Assembly (NCBI RefSeq): GCF_013167455.1
Contig: NZ_CP038328.1
DNA: 64,000 nt
Strand: one strand, 5' to 3'
Origin: Escherichia coli O157:H7
GTDB lineage: Bacteria > Pseudomonadota > Gammaproteobacteria > Enterobacterales > Enterobacteriaceae
Each line of letters begins with the position of its first letter. The stretch's first letter is position 1. Below, one piece after another: positions 30,701-34,225 of the stretch. The position numbers are program-made.

Positions 30701-33700
30701 GTGCGTGAAAACGATCTGCTGACGTTTGCCGTTAACTGGAAAGATGACGTACACCGGGAAAAAGGTGCGCCGCACGCCGCTTACGATCGCTATGAAGATC
30801 GTACCTGGTCGCTCGCCAGTGAATATCAATGGGCTGCTGCCGATAATGTCGATGTTGTGGCTGGAATCAGCTATGACTGGCGCGATAGCGTAGAAGCGAA
30901 AAAACACGAGAAAGATGGCAGCATCACCCATTATGACGACAACAATCAGTCAGCTTTTAACTGGCAGGTGATGGGGAAATACCACTTTGTCAATGAAGAC
31001 ACGCTGGCGCTTTCGTACTATGACCGCAAACGCTTTCCGACGCTGAAAGAACGCTATACCACATCCAAACCTGCGTATAACCAGATAGCGATTGTTAACC
31101 CGCAGCTCAAGCCGGAACGCGCTCGCGGGGTGGATTTAACCTGGAATGGTGCCTTCACGCACGACTGGGGATTTGAGGTCAGCGTTTACTATAACCGGGT
31201 GAGTGATGCCATCCTCTCGCACAATATCGATGCCGATACCATTCAAAATCAGAACAGCGGCACGGTGGATTACAGCGGTCTGGATGCCGGTATTAAGGGG
31301 AAAATCAGCAATATACTGGATGTAGGATTGAGCTACGCCCTGATCCACGCTGACGCCAAACGTAAAGACATCGGCAAGATAACCGATCTGCCAACGCAGA
31401 CAATGACCGCATGGATGACTCTCAAACCGTGGGAGCCGTTAAGCGTAACGCTGTCGGAAGAGGCGCGTTCCTCCAGCTACAGTAACAGTGACGGTTCACA
31501 AAAAGCCGCCGGTTTTGCGGTGACCCACATTCGAGCCGATTACACCTTAGGTCATGGCTTCAGCGTCAATGCGTCGGTCAATAACCTGTTTGATACCCAA
31601 TATGCCTACAGTGAAGGGTTTGTTGAAGAAGGTCGCAATTTCTGGGCAGGTGTCGAGTATACGTTCTGATGTGAAAGCGGATAGCGGCATCTGTATCGCT
31701 ATCCGCCTTATGAAAATCTTATTCTCTTCGCAGGAGGCGGAATACGCCCAGAACGAGAATAGCTCCCACCACCGCCACCAGGAAGCTGTGCAAATTAAAA
31801 CCGCTGATGGAGCCGCCAATGCCAAACATGGTCGCCAGCCAGCCGCCGACCACCGCACCGACTATCCCGAGAATACAGGTCAGGAAAAATCCACCACCAT
31901 CACGCCCCGGCATGATTAGCTTGGCGATAATGCCGGCTATCAGGCCAAAAATAATCCAGGCAATAATTCCCATGTTCAGGCCCTCGTTTCGATGAATCGG
32001 ACGCAAGAAATGCTTACGTCAACGCTCTAAGTATAGGCAAGGGCGGGATCGATGCTGGGCGTATGTCGGCTGATTTAAGAACAACATGTAAAAAATATTC
32101 ACGCATTTGTATTAAGTTTTGTTAACTGTGACCGATAAACCAAAGACAGTTTGTCAGTCAGGAGTTTTTCCGCGTGAGTCATTACCATGAGCAGTTCCTG
32201 AAACAAAATCCGTTAGCCGTCCTGGGCGTGTTACGCGATTTGCACAAAGCCGCAATTCCTTTGCGTCTCAGTTGGATTGGCGGGCAGCTGATCAGCAAAA
32301 TACTGGTAATAACCCCGGATAAACTGGTGCTGGATTTCGGCAGTCAAGCCGAAGACAACATCGCCGTGCTAAAGGCACAGCACATTACCATTACCGCCGA
32401 AACTCAGGGTGCGAAAGTCGAGTTTACTGTTGAACAACTACAGCAGAGTGAATACTTGCAGCTTCCGGCATTTATTACCGTACCGCCTCCCACCTTATGG
32501 TTTGTACAACGACGCCGATATTTCCGCATCTCCGCCCCACTCCATCCGCCTTATTTTTGCCAGACCAAACTGGCGGATAACAGTACGTTACGTTTCCGCC
32601 TGTATGATTTGTCGTTAGGCGGCATGGGCGCATTACTGGAAACAGCAAAACCTGCCGGGTTGCACGAAGGTATGCGCTTCGCTCAGATTGAAGTCAACAT
32701 GGGGCAATGGGGTGTTTTTCACTTTGACGCCCAGTTAATCTCCATCAGCGAGCGCAAAGTGATTGATTGAACCGCCCCGGAAATCCTGGAGACTAAACTC
32801 CCTGAGAAAGAGGTAAACAGGATGACTAAAAATACTCGTTTTTCCCCCGAGGTCCGTCAACGGGCAGTTCGTATGGTTCTGGAAAGTCAGGGCGAATATG
32901 ACTCACAATGGGCGGCAATTTGTTCCATTGCCCCAAAGATTGGCTGTACACCAGAGACTCTGCGTGTGTGGGTTCGTCAGCATGAGCGGGATACCGGGAG
33001 TGGTGATGGTGGACTCACCACCGCTGAACGTCAGCGTCTGAAAGAGCTGGAACGTAAAAATCGTGAACTGCGCCGCAGTAACGATATCCTTCGCCAGGCT
33101 TCCGCTTATTTTGCGAAGGCGGAGTTCGACCGCCTCTGGAAAAAATGATGCCACTGCTGGATAAGCTGCGTGAGCAGTACGGGGTCGGACCGGTATGCAG
33201 CGAACTGCATATTGCCCCGTCAACGTATTACCATTGTCAGCAACAGCGACATCATCCGGATAAACGCAGTGCCCGTGCGCAGCACGACGACTGGCTGAAG
33301 AGAGAGATACAGCGCGTATACGATGAAAATCATCAGGTGTACGGTGTGCGTAAAGTCTGGCGTCAGTTGTTACGGGAAGGAATCAGGGTGGCCAGATGCA
33401 CTGTGGCACGTCTCATGGCAGTTATGGGACTTGCCGGTGTTCTCCGGGGTAAAAAGGTCCGCACTACCGTCAGCCGGAAAGCCGTTGCCGCATGCGACCG
33501 CGTAAACCGTCAGTTCGTGGCAGAACGTCCAGACCAGTTGTGGGTGGCTGATTTTACCTGGGTAAGCACATGGCAGGGCTTCGTTTATGTGGCGTTCATC
33601 ATTGATGTGTTCGCCGGATACATCGTGGGATGGCAGGTCTCATCATCCATGGAAACAACATTCGTGCTGGATGCACTGGAGCAGGCGTTGTGGGCCCGTC

Positions 33701-34225
33701 GGCCGTCCGGCACAATCCATCACAGTGATAAAGGTTCTCAGTATGTATCGCTGGCCTACACGCAGCGGCTTAAGGAAGCCGGATTACTGGCATCAACAGG
33801 GAGTACTGGCGACTCGTATGACAACGCGATGGCTGAGAGCATCAATGGTCTTTACAAAGCGGAGGTAATACACCGTAAGAGCTGGAAAAACCGGACAGAA
33901 GTGGAACTGGCCACACTAACGTGGGTGGACTGGTATAACAATCGACGATTGCTGGAAAGGCTGGGCCATATTCCTCCGGCAGAAGCAGAAAAAGCTTATT
34001 ATGCTTCCATCGGAAATAATGATCTGGCAGCCTGAGTTCACAGATAAAATACTCTCCAGGAAACCCGGGGCGGTTCAGATGGCAAGAATGAAACCATCAC
34101 CACTCCCCGTCTGAGCTTCCGTTTTCTTAACGTCAGCCCGACGGTGGAGCGGCAATTACAGCGGATTATTTTCTCTCTCGAGCGGGAAGCCCGGGAGAAA
34201 GCGGACAAAGTACGCGACTGATTTA

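What the first reader, a model, noticed from the sequence alone, without database searches (positions are those of the whole stretch)
32174..34221. IS629-like element splits the c-di-GMP flagellar brake gene ycgR
A 1310-bp IS3-family element sits after codon 198 of ycgR with a GAT triplet on both sides. The 5' part keeps the PilZ motifs (RRRYFR, DLSLGG) but ends on a stop supplied by the IS terminus. The last 46 codons lie intact 1.3 kb downstream. The clean target duplication and intact flanks point to a simple, fairly recent insertion. Loss of the C-terminal segment probably impairs c-di-GMP-dependent motor braking and so could alter motility.
Basis: partly seen in the sequence, partly recalled or inferred. 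Interest (0 to 1): 0.5.

Follow-up and report, generated by a model that had tools for sequence, protein, structure and literature searches.

The report
IS629 insertion inactivating flagellar brake ycgR
A 1310-bp IS629/IS1203-type insertion sequence interrupts the flagellar brake gene ycgR in this E. coli O157:H7 window; it is a real, already catalogued, lineage-wide pseudogene rather than a new or strain-specific event.

Summary
ycgR codons 1-198 (32174-32767) run into a TGA formed by the first three bases of a 1310-bp IS3-family element (32768-34077). GAT flanks both ends, and the last 46 codons follow at 34081-34221. O55:H7 and K-12 have one GAT, so the 3-bp duplication is real.

The element looks intact: inverted repeats, orfA/orfB, frameshift pseudoknot. 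The truncation removes the end of the PilZ domain and the C-tail helix that binds MotA, so the c-di-GMP brake is very probably dead.

This is already known. Sakai RefSeq annotates ycgR as a pseudogene, and the site is "IS.10" of Rump et al. 2011.

What I add is the wider picture across 5,426 complete E. coli genomes:
- 165 carry this exact junction.
- 123 more carry derivatives at the same site: three small excision scars, one IS remnant, and 14-kb and 15-kb deletions ending 0 and 4 bp from the IS right end.

The insertion therefore probably predates the split of the sampled O157:H7 strain groups and was later lost repeatedly. Of the derived alleles, only the minus-GAT scar restores the frame. 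Sakai, EDL933, 86-24, EC4115 and TW14359 all lack intact ycgR.

The parts
32112..32138 (+). sigma-28 (FliA, flagellar class 3) promoter-like site upstream of ycgR: TTAAGTTT-N11-ACCGATAA
   Evidence: The only match in 64 kb to TAAAGTTT-N11-GCCGATAA at up to 2 mismatches; 0.05 expected by chance. That ycgR is a class 3 flagellar gene is established knowledge, not tested here.
32174..32767 (+). ycgR 5' part, codons 1-198: PilZN domain plus the first ~87 residues of the PilZ domain, including RRRYFR (113-118) and DLSLGG (145-150)
   Evidence: ORF list; Pfam on the rejoined protein gives PilZN 8-109 and PilZ 112-229; motif positions.
32765..32767 (+). left copy of the 3-bp target-site duplication (GAT, codon D198)
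   Evidence: The empty site in O55:H7 and K-12 has a single GAT.
32768..34077 (+). IS629/IS1203-type IS3-family insertion sequence, 1310 bp; its first three bases (TGA) terminate the truncated ycgR
   Evidence: 99.5% identical to the copy at the same site in Sakai, which is annotated 'IS1203 Family: IS3' / 'IS629 transposase OrfB'. 100% identical to the copies in O157:H7 ECP19-598 and G5295.
32768..32808 (+). left terminal inverted repeat (IRL)
   Evidence: the repeat finder pair I1: 41 nt, 76% complementary.
32822..33148 (+). orfA (108 aa) of the transposase
   Evidence: ORF list; matches positions 1-86 of NCBIfam NF033516, IS3 family transposase.
33103..33219 (+). ALIL pseudoknot (RF01497), the -1 frameshift stimulator at the orfA/orfB overlap
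   Evidence: Rfam match of 121.5 bits against a gathering score of 50, full model 1-117.
33145..34035 (+). orfB (296 aa), catalytic part of the transposase
   Evidence: NF033516 IS3 family transposase, 311.6 bits against a cutoff of 160, profile positions 93-369. The ORF is open.
34037..34077 (+). right terminal inverted repeat (IRR)
34078..34080 (+). right copy of the target-site duplication (GAT)
34081..34221 (+). ycgR 3' part, codons 199-244 plus stop: the end of the PilZ domain and the C-tail helix. It has no in-frame start codon between the upstream in-frame stop at 34045 and 34078, so it is probably untranslated.
   Evidence: Translation and in-frame scan; 100% identical to the Sakai flank.

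Best explanation
This is a loss-of-function allele of the c-di-GMP-dependent flagellar brake gene ycgR. It was made by one simple transposition of an IS629/IS1203-type IS3-family element into codon 198/199, with a 3-bp GAT duplication.

Shown:
- The anatomy of the insertion and the single GAT at the empty site in O55:H7 and K-12.
- The element looks intact: inverted repeats, orfA/orfB and the frameshift pseudoknot are all present.
- The same junction is in 165 complete genomes.

Inferred:
- The sigma-28 promoter still drives a 198-aa product. It keeps PilZN and both c-di-GMP-binding motifs. It lacks about the last 31 residues of the PilZ domain and the C-tail helix that contacts MotA. It therefore cannot brake the motor, and swimming becomes insensitive to raised c-di-GMP.
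- The insertion happened once, after the split from O55:H7 and from sorbitol-fermenting O157:H-, and before the O157:H7 strain groups sampled here diverged.
- The IS was then removed several times by imprecise, microhomology-type excision or flanking deletion. This is the kind of event the IS-excision enhancer IEE is reported to promote in O157.
- The removals left an allelic series: +T, minus GAT, minus GATG, an IS remnant, and a 14-kb and a 15-kb deletion. Only the minus-GAT allele restores the reading frame.
For: Anatomy and target duplication.

IS family features.

Identity with the Sakai copy, which is annotated there as a ycgR pseudogene plus IS1203/IS629.

Same site as IS.10 of Rump et al. 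2011. The paper's flanks TCTTGCCATC / ATCAATCACT are the reverse complements of the window flanks, and the site is listed for Sakai and EDL933.

165 genomes share the junction.

Protein consequences: PilZ spans 112-229. The C-tail helix including E232, with the RxxxR region, forms the MotA-binding site, and mutations there abolish motility inhibition.

Derivative alleles, all exactly at the IS site and seen only in O157:H7-type genomes among the rows listed:
- GATTGAT-T-GGC in 11 genomes.
- GTGATT|GGCAAG in 10 genomes.
- GTGATT|GCAAG in 9 genomes, including 86-24 and ATCC 43888.
- An IS remnant in strain 06-3462.
- dhaK' joined to GAT plus the ycgR 3' part in 63 genomes.
- ycgV' joined 4 bp past the IS right end in 29 genomes, including EC4115 and TW14359.
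Against: No experiment here shows that the 198-aa product is inactive or unstable. It keeps PilZN (the FliG-binding side) and both c-di-GMP motifs, so residual or altered activity is not excluded.

The single-origin history is inferred from junction coincidence, not from a genome phylogeny. About ten O157-type genomes have a perfect ycgR, for example FRIK1989. I cannot say whether they are basal or precise revertants.

The role of IEE is inferred from the literature. The iee gene is outside the window and was not examined.

Counts for the -4 allele rest on one sequence read (86-24) plus identical BLAST span and identity for the other eight genomes.
Confidence: 0.85

Rival explanations
1. The truncated 198-aa YcgR' is not null. 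It still binds c-di-GMP (the RxxxR and DxSxxG motifs are present) and still binds FliG through PilZN. It could then act as a partial brake, a rotational-bias modulator, a c-di-GMP sink, or a new regulator.
For: Both binding motifs and the whole PilZN domain are retained. The sigma-28 promoter is intact. The product ends on a normal stop codon. PilZN residue D54 is reported to mediate FliG binding.
Against: About 31 residues of the PilZ domain are missing, so the fold is probably compromised (the low-confidence model places the break at a hairpin turn, removing one long strand and the terminal helix). The C-tail helix is reported as required for MotA binding and for motility inhibition in vivo. 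In 92 genomes the whole 5' part has been deleted, which argues against a retained function.
Confidence: 0.08
2. The site is an IS629 insertion hotspot. The IS-bearing alleles and the small indels or deletions arose independently in different lineages rather than from one ancestral insertion followed by excisions.
For: IS629 is active in O157:H7, and Rump et al. scored the site as polymorphic among A6 strains. An 18-nt, 17/18 inverted match exists between the IS interior and the ycgR 3' part, so some sequence-based attraction cannot be ruled out.
Against: The first 30 junction hits listed are 100% identical over the 300-bp junction query, and 165 genomes hold most of that query. Flanks checked against Sakai show no differences. 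Three different small indels and two large deletions all end within 4 bp of the IS termini, which is what excision of a resident IS predicts. No non-O157 genome was seen among the rows listed for the junction or the scars.
Confidence: 0.05
3. Assembly artefact: a repeated IS was wrongly placed inside ycgR by the assembler.
For: IS629 is multi-copy (up to 52 places per genome), and such repeats are common sources of misassembly.
Against: The same junction appears in 165 independently sequenced complete genomes, including Sakai and EDL933. It was also confirmed by locus-specific PCR in Rump et al. 2011. A clean 3-bp duplication is present.
Confidence: 0.01

Closest known systems
IS629 insertion site 'IS.10, backbone' of E. 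coli O157:H7 (Rump et al. 2011, BMC Microbiol 11:133); ycgR pseudogene ECs_1691 with IS ECs_1689/1690 in Sakai RefSeq NC_002695.2
   Same: Same gene, same base position, same orientation and same GAT/ATC duplication. The window flanks are identical to Sakai over 894 + 601 nt, and the IS is 99.5% identical.
   Different: The window's copy differs from the Sakai copy at 7 positions, all within IS nt 289-620. It is 100% identical only to the copies in strains ECP19-598 and G5295. The paper does not name ycgR or discuss the phenotype. It scores EC4115 and TW14359 simply as lacking the IS, whereas here the IS site itself proves to be deleted in those strains.
IS629 / IS1203 / IS1203v group of the IS3 family
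   Same: 1310 bp, ends TG...CA, orfA/orfB with a -1 frameshift and ALIL pseudoknot, 3-bp duplication.
   Different: Two subtypes about 5% apart sit in this window: the ycgR copy and the copy at 37796-39105. Rump et al. describe IS1203-like and IS629-like subtypes in O157:H7. I could not assign either copy to a named subtype because no ISfinder reference was available.
IEE-promoted IS629 excision and flanking deletion in EHEC O157 (Kusumoto et al. 2011; Calvo et al. 2023, PMC9943667)
   Same: The IS is lost with junctions at 1-2 nt microhomologies (TG). One-sided flanking deletions of 14-15 kb start 0 and 4 bp from an IS end. This matches the reported outcomes and the microhomology-mediated end-joining activity of IEE.
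   Different: These are natural alleles seen in genomes, not products of an assay. IEE involvement is inferred and was not tested.
Wild-type YcgR of E. coli K-12 (PDB 5Y6F), the PilZN-PilZ c-di-GMP 'backstop brake'
   Same: The rejoined ORF is 244 aa and near-identical to the crystallised protein, with both c-di-GMP motifs.
   Different: Here the gene is split. The expressed part stops at residue 198 and lacks the MotA-binding C-tail helix.

Membership tests
IS3 family insertion sequence (IS629/IS1203 group) | Length about 1.2-1.5 kb with imperfect terminal inverted repeats ending 5'-TG...CA-3' | tested here: met
   1310 bp. The 41-nt inverted repeats are 76% complementary, TGAACCGCCCCGG... 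/ ...CCGGGGCGGTTCA.
IS3 family insertion sequence (IS629/IS1203 group) | Two overlapping ORFs (orfA, orfB) fused by programmed -1 frameshifting | tested here: met
   orfA 32822-33148 and orfB 33145-34035 overlap at AAAAAATGATG. The ALIL pseudoknot RF01497 scores 121.5 bits at 33103-33219. Frameshifting itself was not assayed.
IS3 family insertion sequence (IS629/IS1203 group) | Transposase matching the IS3-family profile | tested here: met
   OrfB matches NF033516 at 311.6 bits (cutoff 160); OrfA covers the N-terminal part of the same profile. The catalytic DDE residues were not located individually.
IS3 family insertion sequence (IS629/IS1203 group) | 3-bp (occasionally 4-bp) target-site duplication | tested here: met
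   GAT on both sides; a single GAT at the empty site in O55:H7 and K-12.
IS3 family insertion sequence (IS629/IS1203 group) | At least 95% nucleotide identity to a named IS629/IS1203 reference | tested here: inconclusive
   99.5% identical to the Sakai copy that its annotators label IS1203/IS629. No ISfinder type sequence was available, so the subtype name is not settled.
YcgR (PilZN-PilZ flagellar brake) | PilZN followed by a PilZ domain with RxxxR and D/NxSxxG motifs | tested here: met
   On the rejoined ORF: PF07317 at 8-109 and PF07238 at 112-229; RRRYFR at 113 and DLSLGG at 145; 5Y6F match E = 3e-158.
YcgR (PilZN-PilZ flagellar brake) | Intact ORF including the C-tail helix (MotA-binding site, E232) | tested here: not met
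   The ORF stops after residue 198 at the IS-borne TGA. The 3' part has no in-frame start codon. It is a pseudogene, not a functional family member.
YcgR (PilZN-PilZ flagellar brake) | Expression from a FliA (sigma-28) class 3 promoter | tested here: inconclusive
   A consensus match at 14/16 positions with the correct 11-nt spacing lies at 32112-32138 and is unique in the window. Transcription was not measured.
IEE-type IS excision products (the scars and deletions in related genomes) | IS lost with junctions at short microhomologies, or a one-sided flanking deletion starting at an IS end | tested here: met
   The +T, -GAT and -GATG scars and the deletions ending 0 and 4 bp from the IS right end.
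IEE-type IS excision products (the scars and deletions in related genomes) | Presence and activity of the iee gene and IS transposase in the host | not testable with these tools
   iee lies outside the 64-kb window. Its presence in O157 is taken from the literature.

The most novel reading that the evidence does not exclude
Loss of the c-di-GMP flagellar brake was an early step in the emergence of typical O157:H7 and may have been advantageous. About 278 of roughly 298 O157-type complete genomes found here lack an intact ycgR. The IS has been removed at least six independent ways, and only one of them restores the frame. Together this could mean selection against, or at least none for, restoring the brake. 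As a result the standard EHEC model strains (Sakai, EDL933/TUV93-0, 86-24, EC4115, TW14359) all swim uncoupled from c-di-GMP. A further untested twist: sigma-28-driven read-through from the ycgR promoter into orfA could tie IS629 transposase expression to flagellar gene expression.
Probability: 0.2. Interest if true: 0.5.

Novelty: already known. Interest (0 to 1): 0.27.

Why it matters
The element itself is ordinary. The practical point is that most sequenced O157:H7 lack a working YcgR, and this includes every commonly used laboratory strain. K-12 and Salmonella models of c-di-GMP control of swimming should therefore not be carried over to EHEC without checking the allele.

At least one paper on an EDL933 derivative proposed YcgR as a candidate cause of paralysed flagella (PMC4249723), although EDL933 carries this disrupted allele. 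No paper in the searchable library mentions ycgR together with IS629.

The locus, together with the neighbouring IS at cvrA-dadX, is also a compact natural record of IS629 excision scars. It could serve as a lineage marker and as material for studying IEE-type repair outcomes.

Tried and rejected
1. A 107-nt 'subtype-specific' probe (33727-33833) was meant to count copies of the ycgR-type IS isoform. It did not discriminate: 4,739 records matched across a continuum of identities. I dropped the attempt to name the subtype.

2. A single-sequence AlphaFold model of the rejoined YcgR came out poor (pLDDT 42, pTM 0.29). I used it only as weak support for the position of the hairpin and terminal helix, and ran no fold search.

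3. The primary structure paper (Hou et al. 2020) is not held in the library. Its conclusions are cited second-hand.

4. I first read the second IS (37796-39105) as truncating cvrA, following PGAP's 'incomplete' flag in related genomes. That was wrong. The 578-aa ORF 35944-37680 is intact and identical to Sakai cvrA, and the IS is intergenic.

5. I tried a four-gamete argument using the two IS sites to prove precise excision from ycgR (FRIK1989 has a perfect ycgR plus the second IS). It is inconclusive, because the 'empty' second site in Sakai and EC4115 is itself a scar.

6. Literature searches for ycgR with IS629, O157, EDL933, Sakai or EHEC found no paper describing this allele by gene name. 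Locus-tag searches returned only noise.
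Full report
**1. The observation**

- An ORF starts at GTG 32174 and runs 198 codons. It ends on TGA at 32768-32770.
- That TGA is the first three bases of a 1310-bp element, 32768-34077. Its ends, TGAACCGCCCCGG... and ...CCGGGGCGGTTCA, form 41-nt imperfect inverted repeats.
- GAT precedes the element at 32765-32767 and follows it at 34078-34080.
- From 34081 there are 46 further codons and a stop at 34219-34221.
- Removing the element and one GAT gives a 244-aa protein. It matches E. coli YcgR crystal structure 5Y6F over its full length (E = 3e-158). 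Pfam finds PilZN at 8-109 and PilZ at 112-229.
- RRRYFR begins at residue 113 and DLSLGG at residue 145.

**2. The duplication test**

I ran it.
- A 300-bp construct with a single GAT is 100% identical to uninterrupted ycgR in eight O55:H7 genomes, in the sorbitol-fermenting O157 strain 493/89, and in a few O157:H7 genomes.
- K-12 MG1655 also has a single GAT.

The 3-bp target duplication is therefore real.

**3. What the element is**

- It has orfA (108 aa) and orfB (296 aa), overlapping at AAAAAATGATG.
- An ALIL frameshift pseudoknot (RF01497) scores 121.5 bits across the overlap.
- OrfB matches the NCBIfam IS3-family transposase model at 311.6 bits, against a cutoff of 160.
- It is 99.5% identical to the copy at the same position in O157:H7 Sakai. 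That copy is annotated 'IS1203 Family: IS3' with 'IS629 transposase OrfB', and ycgR (ECs_1691) is annotated there as a pseudogene.

All sequence features of an intact IS629/IS1203-type element are present. Activity was not tested.

Over 40.3 kb the window differs at one base from O157:H7 strain ECP19-598.

**4. It is already catalogued**

Rump et al. 2011 (PMC3271280) list 47 IS629 sites in four O157:H7 genomes. Site IS.10 ('backbone') has flanks TCTTGCCATC / ATCAATCACT. These are the reverse complements of the window's right and left flanks, ATC repeat included. The site is recorded for Sakai and EDL933 and not for EC4115 or TW14359. By PCR it was present in some A6-complex strains and absent from A5, A4, A2 and A1. 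The paper does not name the gene. No paper in the searchable library holds both 'ycgR' and 'IS629'.

**5. Consequence for the protein (inferred)**

- A sigma-28-type promoter match lies at 32112-32138. It is unique in the window, with 0.05 expected by chance. The 5' part is therefore probably still transcribed with the flagellar regulon.
- The product keeps PilZN and both c-di-GMP motifs. It loses about 31 residues of the PilZ domain and the whole C-terminal tail.
- According to Hou et al. 2020, as reported in PMC10140304 and PMC12393566, the C-tail helix (including E232) and the RxxxR region form the MotA-binding site. Mutations there abolish MotA binding and motility inhibition in vivo.
- A low-confidence single-sequence model places the break at the turn of a beta-hairpin, so one long strand and the terminal helix are lost (weak evidence).
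- The 3' fragment has no in-frame start codon after the upstream in-frame stop at 34045.
- emtA, downstream, is convergent, so no polar effect is expected.

My reading is a null allele of the brake: swimming becomes insensitive to raised c-di-GMP. This was not tested here.

**6. Distribution and history (the part that goes beyond the finding)**

Among 5,426 complete E. coli genomes, 165 carry this exact left junction, all O157:H7-type in the rows listed. A further 123 genomes carry six other alleles anchored at the same few bases:

| Allele | Junction | Genomes | Effect |
|---|---|---|---|
| i. +T scar | GTGATTGAT-T-GGCAAG | 11 | frameshift |
| ii. -GAT scar | GTGATT\|GGCAAG | 10 | in frame, 243 aa |
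| iii. -GATG scar | GTGATT\|GCAAG | 9, incl. 86-24 and ATCC 43888 | frameshift |
| iv. IS remnant | about 1.1 kb of the IS interior deleted | 1 (strain 06-3462) | still disrupted |
| v. 13,983-bp deletion | dhaK (window 20094) joined to the right-hand GAT | 63, incl. FRIK2455, FRIK944, 7784 | 5' part and IS removed |
| vi. 15,171-bp deletion | ycgV (window 18910) joined to window 34082 | 29, incl. EC4115, TW14359, SS17, SS52 | 5' part and IS removed |

- Junctions i and ii can each be drawn as joins between a TG on the left and the TG formed by the last T of the right GAT plus the next G.
- Deletion v ends exactly at the IS right terminus. Deletion vi ends four bases beyond it.
- Three different small indels and two large deletions, all ending within 4 bp of the termini of an IS that sits there in sister genomes, are best explained by one ancestral insertion followed by repeated imprecise loss.
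- This pattern matches IS629 excision and flanking deletion promoted by the IS-excision enhancer in O157. That protein has microhomology-mediated end-joining activity.
- The 'absence' of IS.10 in EC4115 and TW14359 is therefore a deletion of the site, not the ancestral state.
- In total 288 genomes are derived at this site. Of these, 278 lack an intact ycgR and 10 carry the in-frame minus-D198 allele.
- About ten O157-type genomes have a perfect gene. I cannot say whether they are basal or precise revertants.

So 'fairly recent' holds only against the species as a whole.

**7. The neighbouring IS tells the same story**

- A second copy lies at 37796-39105 on the minus strand, about 5% divergent from the ycgR copy. 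It sits between cvrA and dadX in 150 genomes.
- It has no target duplication.
- O55:H7 CB9615 has 1,862 bp there, carrying a leucine-rich-repeat-like ORF, between ...GAAGAAGGTT and CTCGCAGCC.... The IS in the window lies exactly in place of that segment.
- Sakai (GAAGAAG|CAGCC) and EC4115 (GAAGAAG|CCTG) carry two different scars of that IS.
- cvrA itself is intact in the window, despite PGAP's 'incomplete' flag in related genomes.

**8. Comparison with what is known, and verdict**

The element meets the tested defining features of an IS3-family IS629/IS1203-type insertion sequence. The exact subtype name could not be settled without a type sequence. The gene meets the YcgR definition in its rejoined form but fails the 'intact ORF' criterion, so it is a pseudogene.

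The finding is correct, ordinary in kind and already recorded. Two things add modest value:
- The insertion is lineage-wide and old relative to the O157:H7 radiation.
- The commonly used EHEC strains all lack the brake, through four different alleles. At least one paper on an EDL933 derivative overlooked this when it invoked YcgR to explain paralysed flagella.

Whether the loss was adaptive is open. I give that about 0.2.

Noticed in passing
window 37796-39105 (- strand), flanks 37793-37795 GTT and 39106-39108 CTC: A second 1310-bp IS629-type copy lies between cvrA and dadX with no target duplication. It is present in 150 complete genomes. In O55:H7 CB9615 the same two flanks enclose 1,862 bp with a leucine-rich-repeat-like ORF (WP_000135826.1). 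The IS therefore replaced that segment, by insertion plus adjacent deletion. Sakai and EC4115 lack the IS and carry two different scars (GAAGAAG|CAGCC and GAAGAAG|CCTG).
   Followed up: yes
window 32768-34077 versus 37796-39105, and versus Sakai L001:4151-5460: The two IS copies in the window differ at about 70 positions (5%), consistent with the two IS629 subtypes reported in O157:H7. The window's ycgR copy differs from the Sakai ycgR copy at 7 positions, all clustered in IS nt 289-620, while 1.5 kb of flanks are identical. Four of those seven positions match the second copy. This looks like patchy gene conversion between IS copies rather than point mutation.
   Followed up: partly
window 32993-33010 (inside IS orfA) and 34093-34110 (ycgR 3' part, 16 nt past the insertion point): An 18-nt inverted match, 17/18 complementary, links the IS interior to the target gene next to the insertion site. 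None of 300 mononucleotide shuffles of the 600 nt of flanks reached 17/18 (maximum 16). This is a post hoc observation with no known mechanism and may be coincidence.
   Followed up: partly
window 35944-37680 (+): cvrA is an intact 578-aa ORF, 100% identical to Sakai's complete cvrA. PGAP nevertheless annotates it as 'incomplete; missing C-terminus', with an overlapping 147-bp hypothetical ORF, in ECP19-598, EC4115, CB9615 and others. This looks like an annotation quirk rather than a real truncation.
   Followed up: partly
window about 17783-19533, 23223-24907 and 28010-28822 (coordinates transferred from the ECP19-598 annotation, L004 + 12617): The near-identical strain has other decayed genes in this window. 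A pertactin-like autotransporter (ycgV) lacks its C-terminus and abuts a small hypothetical-protein remnant, with no dhaR annotated there. treA is frameshifted. A class I SAM-dependent methyltransferase has an internal stop, whereas it is intact in O55:H7 CB9615. None of these was verified independently.
   Followed up: no
related loci L002, L007, L010, L003, L006, L009 (ycgR site in other O157:H7 genomes): There is an allelic series of IS-loss products at the ycgR site: +T (11 genomes), -GAT in frame (10), -GATG (9, including 86-24 and ATCC 43888), an IS remnant (1), a 14-kb dhaK-ycgR deletion (63) and a 15-kb ycgV-ycgR deletion (29, including EC4115 and TW14359). It could be useful as a lineage marker.
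   Followed up: yes
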